Virus record (IMG/VR): IMGVR_UViG_2061766007_001531 | Length of the DNA: 48,866 bases | Origin: an uncultured virus (IMG/VR IMGVR_UViG_2061766007_001531) | Taxonomy: Duplodnaviria > Heunggongvirae > Uroviricota > Caudoviricetes | Strand: one strand, 5' to 3' | Shown: positions 1-29,508 of the stretch, one piece after another | How positions within the stretch are numbered: position 1 is the first letter of the stretch | Layout: each line of letters starts with the position of its first letter | The notes under the pieces: model-generated | Databases searched by the model: none | What the model saw: only the letters and a program-made list of their open reading frames with translations | Told to the model about the DNA's origin: nothing | Made by a program: the position numbers and the translations under genes

Positions 1-1175
1 TGACCCAGTATTACTGGGAGGCACAACAGAACGACCTAATTAACAGTGAGGTGACGTCGTTGGTTCCCTTTAGGCGCGTGCAGCAAACTTTTTGATGCAT
101 AATAAAAAGATTTGATTTGTATAATCTCCTATTAATTTCCGCGCCTAGTAGTTTTGGTAGTATGAGCCGTTGGATCGCTCAGAGCCTGCTCTGGTCGAGA
201 TCTTCTACCATATGAAACGGACAAGTGTTGGGCCTAGTAGCAAAGGAACGCACTTTAAACACGGGATTTGCTACAACGTCTCGCAGAGCAGAGAACAGAC
301 GTTAAATAGGAGTATGCTCTAGTGTCGCCTTTAGAGCGGTAGCTGGCACGATAAATATTAGGAACTGACTCCCTGCGCTTTCAATGGACGATAGCTAGAT
401 AGCAGGTTAAAAATAGACTCTTCGCCCGTCTCANNNNNNNNNNAGTTTTGATAGTATGCGCCGTTGTACCGCTCGGTGCCTGCACCGGTCGAGGTATTCT
501 ATCAGATGAAACGGACAACCGGTCTCTATGTTCTTTCGAATCGGTATATAAAATGCGAAGACCACCCACTATAGGGGATTGAAAAATATATAGCACGCCG
601 CCTTTAGAGCGGTAGCTGGCGTGTAATGAAATTAGGAACTGACTCCAACGCCACCAAAAGTACACGGGGCGAAATAAATGAAGTACTAGCACAAGTGATC
701 GCCACACGGAAAGTGTCTGAAAAACAAAAATGGGGCGCTCCAAGAACAGGAGCGAGATCAAAAGGCTCTTGCTGGTCACAGAGGGTGTGTAGAAAGCAAG
801 TAAAACACGGGTATGCCCANNNNNNNNNNTTTGTCATGGCACGTGCTTAATGAGTACATGCTTCATACTGCTGTGCCAGCATCGTTTAATTGGTGCTGAA
901 TACTAGTTGCACTAAGCAAGTTATGATTCTCCAGTATGAGTAAAAACTACCGTTTGGGCTGCGTGAGATGCGCCGGGTCCACCCTACACCGCCGCGTTGT
1001 CCTGACGCGGGATATAAATCAAATCATTGCGATGGACCGCAAAGAGCACGCGGTATATAAAGAGAATGCTCTCGCCGTGACCTATAGGCACGGACTTATG
1101 GAGATTAGGAGCCATGAATACGCTATTTGGCTTAATACTCTGTGGATAGCTAGCAAACAAATCCTAATTTCCTTT
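1..1175 (+). ncRNA. GC-rich non-coding structured RNA tract made of tandem H-type pseudoknots and hairpins (contains N gaps at 434-443 and 820-829)
   Basis: No credible ORF or SD. Repeated stem/loop/A-rich linker/loop-complement units, e.g. GTGTT225-229:AACAC258-262 with GTAGCAAA237-244:TTTGCTAC267-274, and AACGTCT275-281:AGACGTT297-303 with AGAGCA285-290:TGCTCT315-320. Compensatory changes between the 150-224 and 444-517 copies. Confidence 0.7.
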
Positions 1176-1212
1176 TATGCCCGAGTGGTGGAATGGCAGA
1201 CACCACAGACTT

Positions 1213-2043
1213 ATTAATTTGAGCACTTGGATACGAAAGTTCCAATGTGAATGTTCCCTAATTCGGTGAAAGTCCAAACTTTGGATTACGCCGAGCTAAA
1301 TTGGATTACGCTATAAAAATTTTTTCCAAAGCGTAAAAGAAAATAAAATAGTTTCCTTCTACTGTAATCACTCTTATAATGAGGTGATGAATATGCGAAA
1401 TGATATTATTGAACGCAAAAATGAAATTCTTCAATGGATTGAAGAAAATCAATCAAAAGCTTATATGTCCCGTGAGTTACATTGCAAACAAGAAACATTA
1501 AATAGATATTTGCAATTATGGGGCATTACTTATGAAGGAAACATGAGCGGAAAAGGTATGACTAAACAATCTAATAAAGGAATGAAATTGTTAGATTATT
1601 TAGCAAATAGTGCGGATGTACAGACTAATAAAGTACGACGTAAATTACTTGAAGAAGGTTATAAAGAATATAAATGTGAATGTTGCGGTAATACTGAATG
1701 GATGGGACATCCTATTCCATTGGAGGTGCATCATAAAGATGGCGACCGTAATAATAATACATTAGAAAACTTTGAACTTTTATGTCCTAATTGCCATGCT
1801 TTTACTGATAGTTATCGTGGAAAAAATAGTAGAATTAATCCATAAATGTGTAGAGACTATATAGGAACTATCTAAGTAATTATAGCAATAGATTACCAGT
1901 AATGGAGTGTAGATTACTTCGGCAGAAGTCAGCGTTAAATGGATCGTTTGATATATTGAAAATCTACTAAGCTATATTTTATATGATAAAGACATAGTCC
2001 AGACTACAACACGCAAGTGGCTATGGCAACATAGTGTAGTATG
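1213..2043 (+). mobile_element. Group I intron (IC3-like) in the tRNA-Leu anticodon (U^AA)
   Basis: 5' CTT^ATTAATTTGAG P1, P/Q-like core TTCGGTGAAA...CGCCGAGCTAAA, R-like GTGTAGAGACTA (~1847-1859), S-like AAGACATAGTCC (~1989-2000), terminal G at 2043. Same insertion site as cyanobacterial trnL(UAA) introns. Confidence 0.9.
1393..1845 (+). CDS. Intron-encoded HNH homing endonuclease
   Basis: CECCG...LEVHHKDGDRNNN...LLCPNCH HNH/Zn motif, N-terminal HTH-like segment, SD GAGGTGA. Confidence 0.9.
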   Translation: MRNDIIERKNEILQWIEENQSKAYMSRELHCKQETLNRYLQLWGITYEGNMSGKGMTKQSNKGMKLLDYLANSADVQTNKVRRKLLEEGYKEYKCECCGNTEWMGHPIPLEVHHKDGDRNNNTLENFELLCPNCHAFTDSYRGKNSRINP

Positions 2044-2133
2044 AAAATCTGTTGCTTGTATAAGCGTGCCGGTTCAAGTCCGGCCTCGGGCACTTTAATA
2101 TAATAGAGGGTAGCTTATAAAGCNNNNNNNNNN

Positions 2134-2218
2134 GCTATTGCGGCTATGGTAACATAGTGTAGTATGAAAATCTGTCGCTCTAATCAGCGTGCCGGTTCAA
2201 GTCCGGCCTCGGGCACCA
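2134..2218 (+). tRNA. Second variant of the intron 3' end plus tRNA-Leu exon 2 (2167-2218, with CCA), after an N gap
   Basis: Near-identical to 2017-2092 with a different variable arm. Likely a strain variant or a duplicate. Confidence 0.7.
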
Positions 2219-3566: not shown

Positions 3567-3859
3567 GGGGTAGCGTAGTATCGACAGGTATAATATGTAT
3601 TAAGAACACGGGTAGGCGGAGCGCCTTAAGCAGCAACTTAAAAGAAACGACGAATTTGATTTCGCTTTAGCCGCCTAATGGCTAGCTTAAACGGTAGACC
3701 TGCTAATCGGTAACTACCTGCGGCTCAATGATAGATTAGCAGCTACATATACCTTTTTTCATATTAGTTTGATGGAACTCTAAACCATCTATCGTGTAAG
3801 TAATTCTTAATATTGATTATAGGCTGGACAGGGAGTGCGACCCTCCCTCTACTCCACCA
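3567..3859 (+). ncRNA. ssrA: tmRNA; tag frame ...NDEFDFALAA* (3646-3678)
   Basis: GGGGTAG/CTACTCC-ACCA acceptor with G3:U70, TCGAC near the 5' end, GGAC...T-arm at the 3' end, tag ending ALAA. Confidence 0.93.
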
Positions 3860-4272: not shown

Positions 4273-4344
4273 GCTCCTGTAGTTCAGTGGTAGAACATGT
4301 GACTTTTAATCACAGGGCCGTGCGTTCAAGTCGCACCAGGGGCA
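4273..4344 (+). tRNA. tRNA-Lys(UUU)
   Basis: TGTGA-CTTTTAA-TCACA. Confidence 0.92.
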
Positions 4345-4351
4345 CTTGAAT

Positions 4352-8326: not shown

Positions 8327-8919
8327 AAGAAAGACGCTTAATTCAGTAAATTGGAACCCAGTGAAGAAGTGTTGACCGCACTGCTGGGGACACCTGAAGA
8401 GCATCCGAAATCTTGATGGGATACTTTCAAGTATCGGGCGCAAAATCGGTAACGATTAGCGATAGCGGAGAAACTCCAAATGCTAAGGGTGGGCGCTATT
8501 ATATCTAGTTGTAAACGCACGATTCCTTTCGGCGGGACAATAGAAAGCCTGGTGAATAGCTAGGCCGAATCCAGATAAGGGTTTAGCTGGTGACTGTATC
8601 AAACTCTGGAAACACCAACAACTCGCTACTGTCGATGAAAGCCAGAAATGGCATATAAGAAAGGTTTACGGTACTCGCAGGTCAAGACAGCAAGTTCAAT
8701 GGAACAATTCTAGAAAAGAATTATTGATTGATTAATTGCTGAATGGTTTGGCTCGGAGTTCAAGGTAAGCAGTCCTTGTCTAGCTAGGCGAAAGCAGGCA
8801 TAGAAAGTGATTGGGTCGCTCCCAACGCTCAGCTCTATGTTTCTAGGTTGCGGAATATGCGATGGGGATATAATAGTAAGGAGAAACACCTCAAATTTAT
8901 TGAATTAGGCGCCTTTCTT
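8327..8919 (+). ncRNA. Large structured ncRNA (~590 nt), ROOL-like
   Basis: The ends pair over ~26 nt (8327-8352 with 8894-8919), with an inner long-range helix 8496-8506:8866-8876. Own promoter, no ORF. Size and tRNA-cluster context fit ROOL; the family is assigned from memory. Confidence 0.7.
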
Positions 8920-10111: not shown

Positions 10112-10498
10112 GATAACCGCAGGAAGGGGATGCGGTATAAAAATATCAACCATCTTTGTAGCGGCAGCTGAGGAAGTGCAGAACCCCGACTACATCGAGC
10201 CCTACGGCCGCCGGTGTGAATGCGACCATGCGTGAACACGGAAACCAAGACACCGTTAAAACACACCTTAAACGCTAGGCACTATTCAGCATTTCCGAAG
10301 ATTTTACCGATGTTGCTGGATATTTGAGTACGTGGCCTGCTCGTAAAATCGGCCTCAGAGGTACCAGTCACTCTGTATAATAACGACTGTGTACATAGGT
10401 GTTAGGCGGACGCACCTAAAATGTCCACCATTGGCGCTAGTGGGATAATGCGGACAGGCCCGCAAAAGTTGCCCCTTTAAGACTAGCAAATTTACTTC
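10112..10498 (+). ncRNA. Second tandem-pseudoknot non-coding RNA tract
   Basis: Consecutive H-type units: GAGTA/TGCTC with GGCC:GGCC (10326-10354), CAGAG/CTCTG with CAGTC:GACTG (10356-10389), TAGGTG/CACCTA with GGAC:GTCC (10396-10426). Confidence 0.65.
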
Positions 10499-12115: not shown

Positions 12116-13618
12116 ATGAATGATTTTTTAAAGGCTATGAAAGAAGATACGAATTATACTCTTACAGAGAATTTTGGCATTACTCATAAATCCACTTTAA
12201 ATAAGGTGCTTGATATGTTTGGTATGGGCGGTTCCATGCGGAACCGCTCTGATGACGACGTTATCGTTATGTTCGCTAAGGCATACGACGAAGATCCGAC
12301 TCTGGCTCTGCGTTGTTTGTTCTATCTGCGCGATGTACGTGGTGGCCAGGGCGAACGGCGTTTCTTCCGTGTCTGCTATAACTGGCTGGCAAAGGAATAT
12401 CCGGATGAAGCCGAACACATGATTCTGAAAGTGGCTGAATACGGTCGTTATGATGACCTGTTCGCACTTTTTGATACTCCGTGTGAAGGCTCTATGATGG
12501 GCTATATTGCCTATCTACTGAACACTAATAAGGATCATTTGCTTTATAAGTGGATGCCTTCCATTAATGCTTCATCCAAGAATACGCAGGCTCGTGGTCG
12601 CAAGTTCGCGCGCGAGTTTGGTATGACTGAACGGGCATATCGTAAGATGCTGTCCGAGGGTCGTGTAGCATGTAATCTGGTTGAATCTCTAATGAGCCAG
12701 AATCATTGGAATCAGATTGCTTTTGACAAGCTGCCTTCTCGCGCAGGTCTTCTCTATAAGAACGCTTTTATGCGTCGTGAGGAAACCAAAGCTCGTTATG
12801 CTGAGTTTATGAGCAATAAGGAAACCAAGGTTAACGCGGGAGTACTAAATCCGGTGGATATTGCCCATCAGATCTTCGCGTATCGTGGCTATAAACCTTC
12901 TGCTACTGAGCGTCAGGCTTGGCAGAAATACTGGGATAATCTGAAGGACTATTATGATGGTCGTGAAGAACCTGGTATCGCTATCGTTGACGTTAGCGGT
13001 AGCATGTGGGGCCAGCCGCTGGAAGCTGCGGTTTCTATGGGCGCCTACATTGCCGAGCGTGGCAAGGGCCCATTCCAGAACCATTTTATCACCTTCAGTG
13101 ATAATCCTGAACTTGTCGAATTTAGCGGTCGCGATATCTATGACAAGTTCCATCGCGCGCAAGGCGCTGAATGGGGTGGAAGTACCAATATCGAAGCTGT
13201 CTTCGATTTGCTTTTGCGTACCGCAGTTGGTCATGGTACCAGTCCGAAAGATATGCCTAAAACTCTTTATATCTTTAGCGATATGGAGTTCAATGCATGT
13301 ATATCCGCTGGTCCTCGTTCACAGAGTCGTTGGCTTTCTAGCACTCGTATGCTCAATCGGAATCAGATTGATACCGTTATTGAAGCGCAGGCTCATAAAT
13401 GGCGGCAGTATGGCTATCAGATTCCTCGAGTCATCTTCTGGAACCTTGACGCCCGTCAGAACAATATCCCCGCCATCGGTGATGGATTCTCCTATGTAAG
13501 TGGTTTCTCCATGAACATGGTTGAATGTATTCTATCTGGCAAGGATGGCGTGGCTCTGATGCTAGAGAAATTGAATAGTGATCGCTATTCTTCTATCCAT
13601 AGTATCAAGGAGGCTTAA
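12116..13618 (+). CDS. DUF2828 family protein (TROVE/Ro60-like with vWA domain)
   Basis: TEN N-terminus, LFYLRDVRGGQGERR, MIDAS DVSGSM, STNIEAVF, IFSDMEF, IFWNL, VSGFS. Confidence 0.85.
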   Translation: MNDFLKAMKEDTNYTLTENFGITHKSTLNKVLDMFGMGGSMRNRSDDDVIVMFAKAYDEDPTLALRCLFYLRDVRGGQGERRFFRVCYNWLAKEYPDEAEHMILKVAEYGRYDDLFALFDTPCEGSMMGYIAYLLNTNKDHLLYKWMPSINASSKNTQARGRKFAREFGMTERAYRKMLSEGRVACNLVESLMSQNHWNQIAFDKLPSRAGLLYKNAFMRREETKARYAEFMSNKETKVNAGVLNPVDIAHQIFAYRGYKPSATERQAWQKYWDNLKDYYDGREEPGIAIVDVSGSMWGQPLEAAVSMGAYIAERGKGPFQNHFITFSDNPELVEFSGRDIYDKFHRAQGAEWGGSTNIEAVFDLLLRTAVGHGTSPKDMPKTLYIFSDMEFNACISAGPRSQSRWLSSTRMLNRNQIDTVIEAQAHKWRQYGYQIPRVIFWNLDARQNNIPAIGDGFSYVSGFSMNMVECILSGKDGVALMLEKLNSDRYSSIHSIKEA

Positions 13619-28236: not shown

Positions 28237-29508
28237 ATGCTATATAATATTAATGACAAACTACCTGCAAAAAGACTATTCGTCGCGGCAATGCAGCAGG
28301 TCATTGCCTGTTTCGTTGCTACCGTACTAATTCCACAGATTTGTGGAGTACCGATTGCACCAGCCCTTGTAGGTGCTGGTATTGGTACACTAATTTATCA
28401 ACTATTTACTCGCGGCCAGTCCCCAATGTTTATTTCTTCATCGGGAGCTTTCGTAGCCGCAATCATCGGTGCACTTGCTATCGGAACAGCACCTAATTTT
28501 ACTGCTGTAGCGATTGGCGGTATTATTGTTGGCGCTATTTACTGTATTATTGGCCTTATAATTAACAATCGTGGAACTGCTTGGATTAATAAATTACTTC
28601 CACCGGTTGTTATAGGTCCAGTAGTTGCGGTTATCGGACTTAATCTAGCAACATTTATTCCAACCTATTTTCAAATGAATGGACAGTATAGTCTATTAGG
28701 TTTTGGATTAGGTATACTTACACTTATTCTAACTGCTTTAATTTCTCATTATGGTAAAGGTTTTATAAAAAATCTTCCATTTTTGTTTGCTATCCTTATT
28801 GTATATGGAATCGCGGCAGTCCTAACGGTATGCGGCGTGCCTATTATAGATTTTAGTGTCTTTAATGGTATTCATCTATTTCAAGTACCCGACTTTGCGT
28901 TCTTCCATCTAAATTTTGGAGATTTCCAACTCGGATGGTTAGTACAAGTATTATTACTATTTGCGCCCTTATCATTAGTATGTATTGCAGAACATATTTC
29001 TGACCATAAAGCTTTAAGTGCAGTTATTGGAACCGACCTTACACAAAATCCTGGCGTTGGAAAAACTCTTATTGGTGATGGTATTGCTTCTACATTTGGC
29101 GGCTTTACTTGTGGTCTAATGAATACTTCTTATGGCGAAAGCGTTGGAACAACCGGTTTTAGTAAAATATGTTCAAAGTATGTAATTACTTTGGCCGCAG
29201 TAATTATGGCGGCTTCAGCTTTCATCGGGCCGCTTCAAGCCTTCCTAGTATCCATTCCATCATGTATTTTTGGCGGCGTAAGTTGTTGCCTCTATGGATA
29301 CATTACATTAAGCGGTATTCGTACTATTATTGACAATCATCTAGATTTAGTTCATAACAATAAGAATATTCTTATTGTAGCATCAGTTTTAACTATTGGT
29401 GTATCTGGCGCCGTATGTGACTTCGGTGTAATTAGTTTAGGAACCACAGCTCTAGCTATGCTAGTTGGCATTATTCTCAATCTTATTCTTAAAGAGAAAA
29501 AAGATTAA
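28237..29508 (+). CDS. Uracil/xanthine permease (NCS2, UraA/PyrP-like)
   Basis: Multiple TM helices; SSSGAF, PPVVIGPV, EHISD, NTSYGE signature. Confidence 0.9.
   Translation: MLYNINDKLPAKRLFVAAMQQVIACFVATVLIPQICGVPIAPALVGAGIGTLIYQLFTRGQSPMFISSSGAFVAAIIGALAIGTAPNFTAVAIGGIIVGAIYCIIGLIINNRGTAWINKLLPPVVIGPVVAVIGLNLATFIPTYFQMNGQYSLLGFGLGILTLILTALISHYGKGFIKNLPFLFAILIVYGIAAVLTVCGVPIIDFSVFNGIHLFQVPDFAFFHLNFGDFQLGWLVQVLLLFAPLSLVCIAEHISDHKALSAVIGTDLTQNPGVGKTLIGDGIASTFGGFTCGLMNTSYGESVGTTGFSKICSKYVITLAAVIMAASAFIGPLQAFLVSIPSCIFGGVSCCLYGYITLSGIRTIIDNHLDLVHNNKNILIVASVLTIGVSGAVCDFGVISLGTTALAMLVGIILNLILKEKKD

What the first reader, a model, noticed from the sequence alone, without database searches (positions are those of the whole stretch)
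1..1175. Array of diverse tandem RNA pseudoknots: candidate library of type III antitoxin decoys
Seen: this GC-rich, ORF-less tract parses into back-to-back ~30-55 nt H-type pseudoknots with different sequences but one architecture (stem, loop, mostly A-rich linker, segment complementary to the loop). Units lie at 78-114, 225-274 (8-bp S2), 275-320 (7-bp S1, 6-bp S2), 518-561, 565-593, 649-687, 736-771, 1036-1071 and 1075-1101. Two units carry ACCG-loop-CGGTATATAAA (518-553, 1036-1061). Known: type III TA antitoxins (ToxI, CptI, TenpI, antiQ) are tandem pseudoknot repeats of this size. From memory, Eubacterium CptI has a stem followed by GGUAUAUAAA before S2, and phage phiTE escapes ToxIN using pseudo-ToxI repeats. 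Inference: the phage may transcribe a cassette of heterogeneous antitoxin mimics, or other protein-sponging pseudoknots, to neutralise several host abortive-infection RNases at once. No toxin gene is adjacent.
Basis: partly seen in the sequence, partly recalled or inferred. Interest (0 to 1): 0.88.

Follow-up and report, generated by a model that had tools for sequence, protein, structure and literature searches.

The report
Modular pseudoknot RNA leading phage tRNA-Leu
The tract is most of a roughly 1.2-kb structured non-coding RNA of a large cow-rumen phage, built from three conserved domains and swappable small pseudoknots whose cores look like a bacterial RNA antitoxin (CptI), but it lacks what a real antitoxin or decoy would need.

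Summary
Window 1-1175 (+ strand) is real, conserved, structured RNA. It is the ORF-free leader of a phage tRNA-Leu(UAA) gene. It holds a new pseudoknotted 5' domain (68-224, core duplicated at 444-518), the Rfam motif cow-rumen-3 (838-983), a new 3' domain (1073-1168) and several H-type pseudoknot cassettes between them. About 28 related loci from 31-188-kb phage contigs and rumen metagenomes show many compensatory base-pair changes. They keep one domain order but vary in number and kind of cassettes.

Three are wrong (78-114, 736-771, 1075-1101). Two are undecided.

The recalled likeness to CptI is true. Authentic CptI units read ACCNC-loop-GNGGUAUAUAAA, as two window cassettes do. The cassettes nevertheless fail the family tests. 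They have no single-stranded tails with a cleavage site, no repeated unit and no toxin gene. A covariance model of 24 authentic CptI units finds held-out CptI at 31-52 bits but no cassette at E<=10.

Best reading: a new large modular phage RNA of the GOLLD/ROOL kind, with CptI-like pseudoknots as building blocks. The decoy idea stays a minority possibility (about 0.12).

The parts
1..69 (+). 3' part of a 'G' module cut by the window start. It has a hairpin (4-8 with 14-18) and a stem (30-35 with 55-60).
   Evidence: The same module (GACCGACC, hairpin, GGAGGCAC) occurs in relatives upstream of P0, between P0 and the X core, or after X. Stem candidates are listed. An RNA-library contig continues upstream of base 2 (table 7).
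71..147 (+). Helix P0 (71-78 with 140-147). It encloses a variable AT-rich interior and a conserved CAGCAA after the 5' strand.
   Evidence: Alignment A2 of 17 sequences: 4 of its 8 pairs show compensatory changes. RNAalifold predicts the helix independently.
150..224 (+). 5' domain core 'X', copy 1. Helices: P1 155-160/205-210, P2 172-176/199-203, P3 180-184/189-193, pseudoknot 167-171/216-220.
   Evidence: 98.4% of cells are paired, against 33-49% when partners are slid. Ten pairs show compensatory changes and 0 of 500 shuffles reach the observed values. The pseudoknot covaries in the variant loci L441 and L432. An invariant G-U pair fixes the strand as +.
223..274 (+). Type-a H-type pseudoknot with linker UAAACACGGG.
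   Evidence: Stem 2 is GTAGCAAA/TTTGCTAC here. It is GTAGTGAA/TTCACTAC in L258 and GCGGCAA/TTGCCGC in L277.
275..320 (+). H-type pseudoknot: stem 1 275-281/297-303, stem 2 285-290/315-320.
   Evidence: Found by the scanner. One relative (L225/L262) keeps stem 1 and has a different 7-bp stem 2, seen by eye. blastn-short found no homologue.
322..372 (+). Y module, copy 1.
   Evidence: Repeated at 593-646. The two copies differ by two compensatory pairs in the outer stem (by eye). It was not found in viral contigs but is present in RNA-library contigs (table 8).
374..433 (+). Type-d pseudoknot with linker UAAAAAUAGAC. Its 3' end runs into the N mask at 434-443.
   Evidence: Relatives in L256, L258, L259, L265, L278 and L279 have differing stem 2 sequences.
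444..518 (+). 5' domain core 'X', copy 2. It is part of a 294-nt tandem duplication seen only in this window.
   Evidence: 84% identical to copy 1, with compensatory changes in P1, P2 and P3.
518..561 (+). Type-e pseudoknot with a CptI-like core: ACCG...CGGU followed by AUAUAAAA.
   Evidence: Stem 2 changes from GTCTTT/GAAGAC (L274) to GTTTTC/GAAAAC (L279).
565..593 (+). Small hairpin or pseudoknot candidate.
   Evidence: Conserved in L274 and L279 with unchanged stems. No covariation, so undecided.
593..646 (+). Y module, copy 2.
649..767 (+). Partly conserved spacer. It holds a candidate pseudoknot at 649-687 and a hairpin at 738-754.
   Evidence: Only L268 and L262 align to parts of it. Undecided.
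768..819 (+). Type-a pseudoknot directly before cow-rumen-3. The N mask at 820-829 follows it.
   Evidence: Identical over 52 nt in L260, L261, L269 and L270. L276 has a change that turns a U-G pair of stem 2 into C-G.
838..983 (+). cow-rumen-3 RNA (Rfam RF03083).
   Evidence: 145 bits against a gathering score of 86.7, E 1e-33, full model. Present downstream of X in 14 of 20 loci scanned.
988..1035 (+). Type-e variant with linker GGGAUAUAAA.
   Evidence: One search lists relatives. My scanner did not find a contiguous stem 2.
1036..1072 (+). Type-e pseudoknot, the closest look-alike of a CptI core. Stem 1 ACCGC/GCGGU, loop L2 AUAUAAAGAGAA, stem 2 AGAGCA/UGCUCU.
   Evidence: Stem 2 is AGGACA/TGTCCT in L261. 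The core-only CptI model gives 11.7 bits, E 1.4.
1073..1168 (+). 3' domain. Hairpin 1075-1079/1089-1093, long-range helix 1104-1110/1162-1168 and inner helix 1111-1114/1128-1131.
   Evidence: Alignment A5 of 10 sequences: 100% of cells are paired (23-38% when slid) and 9 of 16 pairs show compensatory changes.
1179..1212 (+). 5' exon of tRNA-Leu(UAA), which ends the transcription unit. The gene is interrupted here after anticodon position 34.
   Evidence: An uninterrupted tRNA-Leu(UAA) follows the RNA in 13 of 19 related loci. Exon borders were read.

Best explanation
Window 1-1175 is the body of one large modular non-coding RNA of a large rumen phage. Its 5' end is cut by the window start. In relatives the RNA runs about 0.5-1.0 kb from promoter to tRNA; here it is more than 1.17 kb.

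**Transcription and release (inferred).** It is transcribed from a promoter upstream of helix P0, together with the tRNA-Leu(UAA) gene that follows it. RNase P cutting at the tRNA 5' end would release it.

**Conserved frame (shown).** Three domains keep a fixed order.
- A pseudoknotted 5' domain (P0 and X).
- The cow-rumen-3 core.
- A 3' domain.

**Cassettes (shown).** Between the domains lie interchangeable H-type pseudoknots of at least four linker types. Each has a 5-8-bp stem 1, an A-rich third loop placed to lie in the groove of stem 1, and a stem 2 drawn from the first loop. The CptI antitoxin core has the same build.

**How it most likely works (inferred).** The cassettes are rigid, nuclease-resistant building blocks. 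They vary like expansion segments. They space and present the three conserved domains, and those domains carry the specific activity. The RNA would then be a stable structural or scaffolding RNA of the phage's tRNA/RNA island, the same kind of thing as GOLLD and ROOL. It is not a set of antitoxins. What it binds or assembles into is unknown.
For: **Homologues.**
- 19 distinct homologous loci were anchored on X. Three further lineages were anchored on cow-rumen-3: L441, L432, and L419 with its near-twin L449.
- They come from phage contigs of 31-188 kb. One is a complete 182,655-bp genome with terminal repeats.

**Covariation.**
- 5' domain: 98.4% of cells paired, 10 compensatory pairs, 0 of 500 shuffles reach it. 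RNAalifold finds the same helices.
- 3' domain: 100% paired, 9 of 16 pairs compensatory.
- Cassettes: both stems of >=5 bp in 35 of 56 instances, against 95 of 1120 shuffled controls.

**Architecture.**
- Fixed order: X, then cassettes of types a, d, e and f, then cow-rumen-3, V, W, type e, the 3' domain and tRNA-Leu(UAA). Cassette number varies.
- cow-rumen-3 lies downstream of X in 14 of 20 loci.
- tRNA-Leu(UAA) follows in 13 of 19 loci although its backbone differs between them.
- A consensus promoter lies 137-316 nt upstream of X in 7 of 19 loci.
- No promoter or terminator excess lies inside 1-1175.
- Type-e and Y motifs occur nowhere else in the 48.9-kb window.

**Expression.** Contigs of four rumen RNA libraries from four studies cover 1-1120.

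**Context.** ROOL lies 7 kb downstream in the same tRNA island. GOLLD and ROOL are phage RNAs near tRNA islands (passages of PMC5737381, and of bioRxiv 10.1101/2024.12.08.627333).
Against: - Nothing here shows one continuous transcript, its ends or RNase P release. RNA-library contigs cannot show ends or strand, and such libraries may hold DNA.
- The window lacks the promoter.
- Modules move. The G module sits before P0, inside the 5' domain or after X in different phages. L276 lacks cow-rumen-3. This fits beads on a string as well as one fold.
- Single-sequence folding energies are not better than shuffles.
- The homologues are related phages, so covariation counts are partly inherited. The X-anchored set was fished with a pattern that fixes 26 bases of X, so those positions are invariant by construction.
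- No long-range pairing between domains was found or tested.
- The scaffold function is inference by analogy.
Confidence: 0.5

Rival explanations
1. Decoy or sponge library. The cassettes mimic type III antitoxin cores and soak up host abortive-infection RNases such as CptN.
For: - The type-e cassettes share with authentic CptI the stem ACCNC/GNGGU, the AUAUAAA start of loop L2 and nearly the same loop geometry.
- Types d and f have UAAUAAAUG-like loops as other CptI units do.
- cptIN is common in rumen and gut Clostridia. CptN homologues occur in 15 of 400 genomes sampled. The 26-nt CptI core occurs in at least 120 species-level genome loci.
- One natural cptI array (L406) has three unlike repeats.
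- Recalled, not read here: phage phiTE escapes ToxIN with pseudo-ToxI repeats.
Against: - There are no single-stranded tails or cleavage site. These make both CptN interfaces.
- 0 of 6 non-cognate CptI neutralise.
- CptI models do not pick the cassettes out of the window, while held-out CptI scores 31-52 bits.
- Cassettes abut each other without spacers.
- They are embedded in a conserved domain order with non-pseudoknot domains.
- The host is unknown.
Confidence: 0.12
2. Leader that serves the tRNA. It would be a nuclease-resistant, highly structured 5' leader that stabilises or times the maturation of the phage tRNA-Leu(UAA) precursor.
For: - It always lies directly 5' of a tRNA-Leu(UAA), even where the tRNA backbone has been replaced.
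- A second unit of promoter, type-e cassette and tRNA-Thr exists in L257 (in L259 the promoter and cassette are seen, the tRNA was not called).
- Recalled analogy: arrays of pseudoknots before the tRNA-like end of tobamovirus RNAs.
Against: - About 1 kb with three strongly conserved domains is far more than a leader needs.
- Fifteen other tRNAs of the island have no such leader.
- cow-rumen-3 and X carry conserved unpaired bases, which suggests a function of their own.
Confidence: 0.15
3. RNA partner of the phage's 500-aa DUF2828/DUF7788 protein (window 12116-13615; the PHROG family is annotated 'RNA-binding protein'). It would work in the way Y RNAs partner Ro60-like proteins.
For: - The protein matches phrog_850 at E 3e-119, DUF2828 and DUF7788.
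- It is present in 4 of 5 related phage records, 10-15 kb from the RNA.
- The kinship of DUF2828 with the Ro60 TROVE domain is recalled, not tested.
Against: - The co-occurrence is among related phages, so it is only synteny.
- No Y RNA or YrlA match lies in 1-1175.
- No Ro-binding helix was identified.
- The distance is 11 kb.
Confidence: 0.08
4. Chance parse of non-functional spacer DNA.
For: With 4+4-bp stems the pseudoknot count equals that of shuffles. Folding z-scores are not significant.
Against: Extensive compensatory changes, an Rfam match at 145 bits, conservation across about 28 loci, and presence in RNA libraries.
Confidence: 0.02

Closest known systems
cow-rumen-3 RNA (Rfam RF03083; from the motif survey of Weinberg et al. 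2017, PMC5737381, whose supplement could not be read here)
   Same: Window 838-983 is a full-length member at 145 bits. It comes from the same habitat.
   Different: Rfam describes a 141-nt motif. Here it is the middle domain of a 0.5-1.2-kb RNA with new 5' and 3' domains and pseudoknot cassettes. One relative (L276) lacks it altogether.
GOLLD and ROOL, the large ornate phage RNAs near tRNA islands
   Same: Large, rich in pseudoknots, phage-borne and next to or fused with tRNA genes. GOLLD has a conserved part and a variable part and sometimes carries a tRNA (passages). A ROOL lies in this same island.
   Different: No match to either model in 1-1175. The build here is cassette-like, with gain and loss of small units. 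Oligomer formation was not tested.
CptI, the RNA antitoxin of the CptIN type III toxin-antitoxin system (Rao et al. 2015, PMC4627078, passages seen)
   Same: H-type pseudoknot of 33-39 nt. Stem 1 is ACCNC/GNGGU or similar. An A-rich L2 (AUAUAAA or UAAUAAA) follows stem 1, with short L1 and junction.
   Different: No 5' or 3' single-stranded tails, no cleavage site, no tandem copies of one unit, no terminator followed by a toxin gene, and not recognised by CptI covariance models.
Pseudo-ToxI repeats of Pectobacterium phage phiTE (recalled, not read here)
   Same: A phage carrying antitoxin-like RNA.
   Different: phiTE repeats are near-copies of the host's ToxI unit, tails included. The cassettes here share only the core motif.
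Upstream pseudoknot domain before the tRNA-like end of tobamovirus RNA, and the stable RNAs co-transcribed with phage T4 tRNAs (both recalled)
   Same: Consecutive pseudoknots directly 5' of a tRNA-shaped element; unexplained stable RNAs in a phage tRNA operon.
   Different: No sequence relation. Those systems are in an mRNA 3' UTR and in a much smaller RNA, respectively.

Membership tests
Type III antitoxin, CptI family | H-type pseudoknot core with a 5-7-bp stem 1, an A-rich L2 after stem 1, and stem 2 drawn from the first loop | tested here: met
   The window cassettes at 518-561 and 1036-1072 have this build. The same scanner recovers authentic CptI units. The S1/L2 letters equal those of L405 CptI.
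Type III antitoxin, CptI family | Tandem direct repeats of one unit (usually 2-3 near-identical copies) | tested here: not met
   The repeat search finds no tandem 30-55-nt unit in 1-1175. The only long repeats are the 294-nt-spaced X and Y copies. One natural array (L406) is heterogeneous, so this feature is not absolute.
Type III antitoxin, CptI family | Single-stranded 5' and 3' tails that carry the toxin's cleavage site and form both protein interfaces | tested here: not met
   Model R1, built from 24 authentic units with tails, gives no match in 1-1175 at E<=10. Held-out CptI scores 31-52 bits. The interfaces are described.
Type III antitoxin, CptI family | Statistical match of the core alone | tested here: inconclusive
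   Core-only model R2: 1036-1069 scores 11.7 bits, E 1.4, rank 2 of 12 matches in the window. The model is too short to decide.
Type III antitoxin, CptI family | Terminator and toxin gene (CptN, ToxN or TenpN) directly downstream | tested here: not met
   tblastn with CptN: best E 3.7 in the window, and no hit at E<=0.01 in 171 held phage loci. A tRNA-Leu gene follows the tract. ToxN and TenpN were not searched.
Type III antitoxin, CptI family | Neutralises its toxin | not testable with these tools
   Needs a kill/rescue assay.
Rfam antitoxin families (ToxI and others) | Match to a curated covariance model | tested here: inconclusive
   No such match at E<=10 in 1-2400. Rfam 15 also gives no match on authentic CptI repeats (positive control), so the library does not cover CptI.
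cow-rumen-3 (RF03083) | Score above the gathering threshold over the full model | tested here: met
   145 bits against 86.7, model positions 1-141.
GOLLD / ROOL | Match to RF01998 or RF03087 | tested here: not met
   No match in 1-1175. The ROOL of this window lies at 8333-8910.
Large ornate phage RNAs of tRNA islands (a kind, not a homology family) | Longer than 400 nt, ORF-free, several covarying helices and pseudoknots, phage-borne, next to tRNA genes | tested here: met
Large ornate phage RNAs of tRNA islands (a kind, not a homology family) | Protein-free homo-oligomeric assembly | not testable with these tools
   Needs cryo-EM or light scattering.

The most novel reading that the evidence does not exclude
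The phage RNA strings together uncleavable look-alikes of CptI-type antitoxin cores of several specificities. As one abundant transcript, it would titrate or mis-assemble type III toxin RNases (or other pseudoknot-binding defence proteins) of its Clostridia hosts. That would be an RNA-only, multi-target anti-defence sponge, and CptI-type antitoxins and these cassettes would share ancestry.
Probability: 0.12. Interest if true: 0.88.

Novelty: new variant of a known kind. Interest (0 to 1): 0.66.

Why it matters
- It turns an orphan 141-nt Rfam motif into the core of a much larger, cassette-built RNA. It adds a third kind of large structured RNA, beside ROOL and GOLLD, to the tRNA islands of large rumen phages. 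RNA libraries of several studies hold it.
- Natural gain, loss and exchange of small pseudoknot units gives a ready-made mutational series for dissecting function.
- The exact sharing of the stem-1/A-rich-loop signature with CptI links a phage RNA and a bacterial antitoxin at the level of a structural motif. That makes one question directly testable: do phages use antitoxin-like RNA folds against type III systems, or is this fold simply a favoured stable brick?

Tried and rejected
**Searches that found nothing**
- blastn of 1-1300 against 50,697 phage records: no match.
- The exact 22-mer of the Y module: 0 viral contigs.
- Three loose patterns gave mostly chance hits and had to be screened by BLAST.
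- No whole genome is held for the window.
- Earlier findings by place and by sequence: nothing.

**Literature**
- A search for 'cow-rumen-3' found 0 papers.
- The supplement of PMC5737381, which should describe the motif, could not be read. Any published remark on its flanks may have escaped me.

**Tests that could not decide**
- The Rfam negative for antitoxins carries no weight for CptI.
- MAFFT alignment A6 of type-a cassettes put gaps inside stem 1. I made no column counts on it and used the register-free test instead.
- Single-sequence folding of six sub-stretches gave no signal.

**RNA libraries**
- RNA-contig cover is low at 1121-1200 and absent at 2241-2400. I do not use this as evidence.
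- The many 'joints' were obtained at 85% likeness. They probably come from related phages with other cassette sets. They agree with the module borders (222|276, 274|791, 426|736, 433|669, 811|930) but are not counted as proof.

**Ideas considered and dropped**
- Hammerhead or HDV-like ribozyme for X: the topology and core letters do not fit, and there is no Rfam match.
- T-box leader: wrong context.
- Internal promoter inside P0: no scan hit, and P0 covaries.
Full report
**What is in the sequence**

- Window 1-1175 has 44-47% G+C. The next 900 bases have 32-35%.
- It has only mechanical ORFs. None of the three I tested matches a Pfam family.
- Runs of ten N mask 434-443 and 820-829.
- Rfam places a full-length cow-rumen-3 RNA at 838-983 (145 bits, gathering score 86.7). 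Nothing else in the tract scores above noise.
- The repeat search shows a 75-nt module at 150-224 and 444-518 (84% identity), and a second module at about 322-372 and 593-646. Together they form a 294-nt tandem duplication.
- The differences between the two copies are largely compensatory in candidate helices.
- Directly after the tract, at 1179-1212, lies the 5' half of a tRNA-Leu(UAA) gene.
- The rest of the first 9 kb of the window holds 15 tRNA genes and a ROOL RNA.

**Is the pseudoknot parse more than chance?**

I wrote a plain H-type pseudoknot scanner and compared the tract with 100 dinucleotide shuffles.

| Setting | Observed | Shuffles (mean +- sd) | Shuffles reaching it |
|---|---|---|---|
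| stems >=4+4 bp | 20 | 19.7+-1.9 | 53 of 100 |
| stems >=5+5 bp | 11 | 6.2+-1.8 | 1 of 100 |
| Watson-Crick pairs only | 5 | 0.9+-1.0 | 0 of 100 |
| A-rich linker required | 5 | 1.8+-1.0 | 0 of 100 |

- Minimum-free-energy folding of six sub-stretches is no better than shuffles.
- So the single sequence gives only a moderate signal.

**Relatives**

- No cultured phage matches.
- A pattern from the 75-nt module found 7 viral and 20 metagenome loci. After removing duplicates and one chance hit (L280), 19 distinct homologues remain.
- A second scan anchored on cow-rumen-3 gave 9 true loci among 32. Among them are three new lineages with a diverged 5' domain: L441, L432, and L419 with its near-twin L449.
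- The contigs are phage-like and measure 31-188 kb. One is a complete 182,655-bp genome with terminal repeats.
- The window is therefore a fragment of a large rumen phage. Its other genes fit this: topoisomerase II, DnaB-like helicase, primase, RecJ-like exonuclease and several homing endonucleases.

**Domains supported by covariation**

- *5' domain (window 68-224), 17 sequences.*
  - Helix P0 encloses a variable AT-rich stretch. It is followed by P1, P2, P3 and a pseudoknot.
  - 98.4% of cells are paired, against 33-49% when partners are slid.
  - Ten pairs show compensatory changes, and 0 of 500 shuffles reach the observed values.
  - RNAalifold finds the same helices unaided.
  - The pseudoknot is invariant in that set because the search pattern fixed it. 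In L441 and L432 it reads GCCATC with GATGGC (L441; GGTGGC in L432) instead of CCGTT with AACGG, which is compensatory.
  - An invariant G-U pair fixes the strand as +.
- *3' domain (1073-1168), 10 sequences.* 100% of cells are paired (23-38% when slid), and 9 of 16 pairs are compensatory.

**Cassettes**

- Four conserved A-rich linkers mark the cassette types: type a, UAAAACACGGG; type d, UAAAAAAUAGAC; type e, GG(U/G)AUAUAAA; type f, UAUAAAUGUCGG.
- Without relying on an alignment, I asked whether a stem 1 ending at the linker and a stem 2 starting after it both reach 5 bp.

| Type | Instances with both stems >=5 bp | Shuffled flanks |
|---|---|---|
| a | 10 of 15 | 28 of 300 |
| d | 5 of 9 | 19 of 180 |
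| e | 15 of 27 | 39 of 540 |
| f | 5 of 5 | 9 of 100 |
| all | 35 of 56 | 95 of 1120 |

- Two window instances touching N were skipped. A few instances outside the RNA were kept.
- Stem sequences differ widely between copies. For type a, stem 2 is GTAGCAAA/TTTGCTAC, GTAGTGAA/TTCACTAC, GCGGCAA/TTGCCGC or GGGYGT/ATGCCC.

**Verdict on the nine units**

- Supported: 225-274, 275-320 (one relative only, by eye; no blastn-short hit), 518-561 and 1036-1071.
- Undecided: 565-593 and 649-687.
- Wrong:
  - 78-114 is the variable interior of P0.
  - The second stem of 736-771 is really stem 1 of the type-a pseudoknot at 768-819. That pseudoknot is identical over 52 nt in four relatives.
  - 1075-1101 is a hairpin of the 3' domain.
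Together these make up more than a third of the tract.

**Architecture**

- Across loci the order is constant: promoter (a consensus match 137-316 nt before X in 7 of 19 loci), sometimes a G module, then P0 and X. Next come a variable set of cassettes of types a, d, e and f, then cow-rumen-3 and modules V and W. A type-e cassette, the 3' domain and tRNA-Leu(UAA) close the unit.
- The tRNA is called directly downstream in 13 of 19 loci. The rest end early or have an interrupted gene.
- The tRNA-Leu backbone differs between phages, yet the anticodon stays UAA.
- cow-rumen-3 follows X in 14 of 20 loci scanned, at distances of about 90-600 nt.
- L276 is a minimal form without it.
- The G module changes place between phages.
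- Inside 1-1175 there is no excess of promoter-like or terminator-like sites.
- Type-e and Y motifs occur nowhere else in the 48.9-kb window. The looser type-a and type-d patterns have 3 and 2 stray matches in coding DNA.

**Expression**

- Of 20 public runs that hold part of 830-2123, six are RNA libraries.
- I laid four bovine-gut RNA libraries from four studies on 1-2400. Their contigs cover the tract (21-28 of 30 bins have depth) at 85-100% likeness.
- Contigs cannot show ends, strand or level, and DNA may be present. This shows only that the sequence and its relatives are in RNA libraries.
- Many contigs join the window's modules differently, at 222|276, 274|791, 426|736, 433|669 and 811|930. 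This fits related phages with other cassette sets. At this likeness, such joints are only suggestive.

**The antitoxin question**

- *Rfam.* It gives no antitoxin match, but it also fails on authentic CptI repeats. That negative therefore means nothing for CptI.
- *The real CptI sequence.* I took it from a primer printed in Rao et al. 2015.
- *Spread of CptI and CptN.*
  - A 26-nt piece of CptI occurs in at least 120 genome loci, mostly Lachnospiraceae.
  - With the CptN of one such locus I found homologues in 15 of 400 Clostridia genomes.
  - I collected 24 distinct upstream units. Their pseudoknot covaries: 84% of cells paired, and 9 of 10 pairs compensatory.
- *Resemblance.* One authentic unit (L405) has the very stem ACCGC/GCGGU and AUAUAAA of the window cassette at 1036-1072. 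Loop lengths are alike too.
- *Model tests.*
  - A model of the 24 units with tails finds held-out CptI in four other loci at 31-52 bits.
  - It finds none of the window's cassettes at E<=10.
  - In 19 related loci its best hits are 18.4 bits (E 0.1, a type-e unit elsewhere in a tRNA island) and 11.8 bits (E 4.7).
  - A core-only model gives 11.7 bits, E 1.4, for 1036-1069.
- *What the toxin needs.*
  - CptN binds the single-stranded 5' and 3' ends of CptI.
  - It cuts at A45.
  - It is not neutralised by any of six non-cognate pairings.
- *What the cassettes lack.* They abut each other and have no such tails. There is no repeated unit and no CptN-like gene.
- *Conclusion.* The cassettes share a structural motif with CptI but are not CptI family members. 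Decoy action is possible only by a mechanism unlike known antitoxin binding.

**Most likely explanation**

- The tract is one large modular RNA, co-transcribed with tRNA-Leu(UAA). RNase P probably releases it (inferred).
- Three conserved domains carry the function.
- CptI-like pseudoknots serve as stable, exchangeable bricks.
- It belongs with GOLLD and ROOL as a large structured RNA of phage tRNA islands (passages). It differs from them by its cassette build.
- Earlier notes of this scan report other unexplained ornate RNAs in rumen-phage tRNA islands. I did not test them.
- What the RNA binds is open.
- Rivals are a decoy sponge (0.12), a tRNA-leader role (0.15) and a partner RNA of the phage's DUF2828/DUF7788 protein (0.08).

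**Limits**

- The 5' end is cut by the window, and two stretches are masked.
- The homologues are related phages, and the main set was ascertained on X.
- No experiment-grade evidence exists for transcript ends.
- The supplement that first described cow-rumen-3 could not be read.

Noticed in passing
window 1179-2218: The tRNA-Leu(UAA) gene is split after anticodon position 34 (5' exon 1179-1212). The insertion of about 830-950 nt looks like an intron and carries an HNH endonuclease ORF (1384-1845; phrog_10822, E 5e-28). The last ~25 nt of the insertion plus the 3' exon occur twice (2019-2093 and 2142-2216), and only the second copy ends in CCA. There is no Rfam group I match. L261 has the same insertion. 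RNA-library contigs include forms without 566 nt (1274|1841) and without the duplication (2011|2142).
   Followed up: partly
window 8333-8910: A full-length ROOL RNA (277.6 bits) lies in the same tRNA island. ROOL is present in 2 of 5 related phage records.
   Followed up: partly
window 12116-13615: A 500-aa protein with DUF2828 and DUF7788 domains (phrog_850 'RNA-binding protein', E 3e-119). It is conserved in 4 of 5 related phage records and sits near a metallophosphoesterase and a ligase-like gene. It may be a Ro60-like RNA-handling protein; that kinship is recalled, not tested.
   Followed up: partly
window 3567-3859: A sub-threshold tmRNA match between tRNA genes (34.5 bits against a gathering score of 47, E 8e-11), with an overlapping permuted-tmRNA match.
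   Followed up: no
window 10116-10151: A further ACCGC...GCGGUAUAAAAAU unit lies in a GC-rich patch (10.1-10.5 kb, GC 0.49). The core-only CptI model picked it up at 9.8 bits, E 3.8.
   Followed up: no
L257 (about 1094-1330 nt after X); L259 (about 913-1018 nt after X, and 4298-4345 minus strand): Type-e cassettes also occur outside this RNA. In L257 one sits between a second strong promoter and a tRNA-Thr(CGU) gene. L259 has the same promoter and cassette, but no tRNA was called there. L259 holds another unit 1.7 kb upstream (18.4 bits with the CptI model).
   Followed up: partly
This suggests recent horizontal spread of this cptIN locus.
   Followed up: no
L406 2018-2134 (minus strand): A natural cptI array upstream of a CptN homologue has three unlike pseudoknot units rather than identical repeats.
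   Followed up: no
window 28237-29505: The phage carries a xanthine/uracil permease family gene (PF00860, E 5e-57).
   Followed up: no
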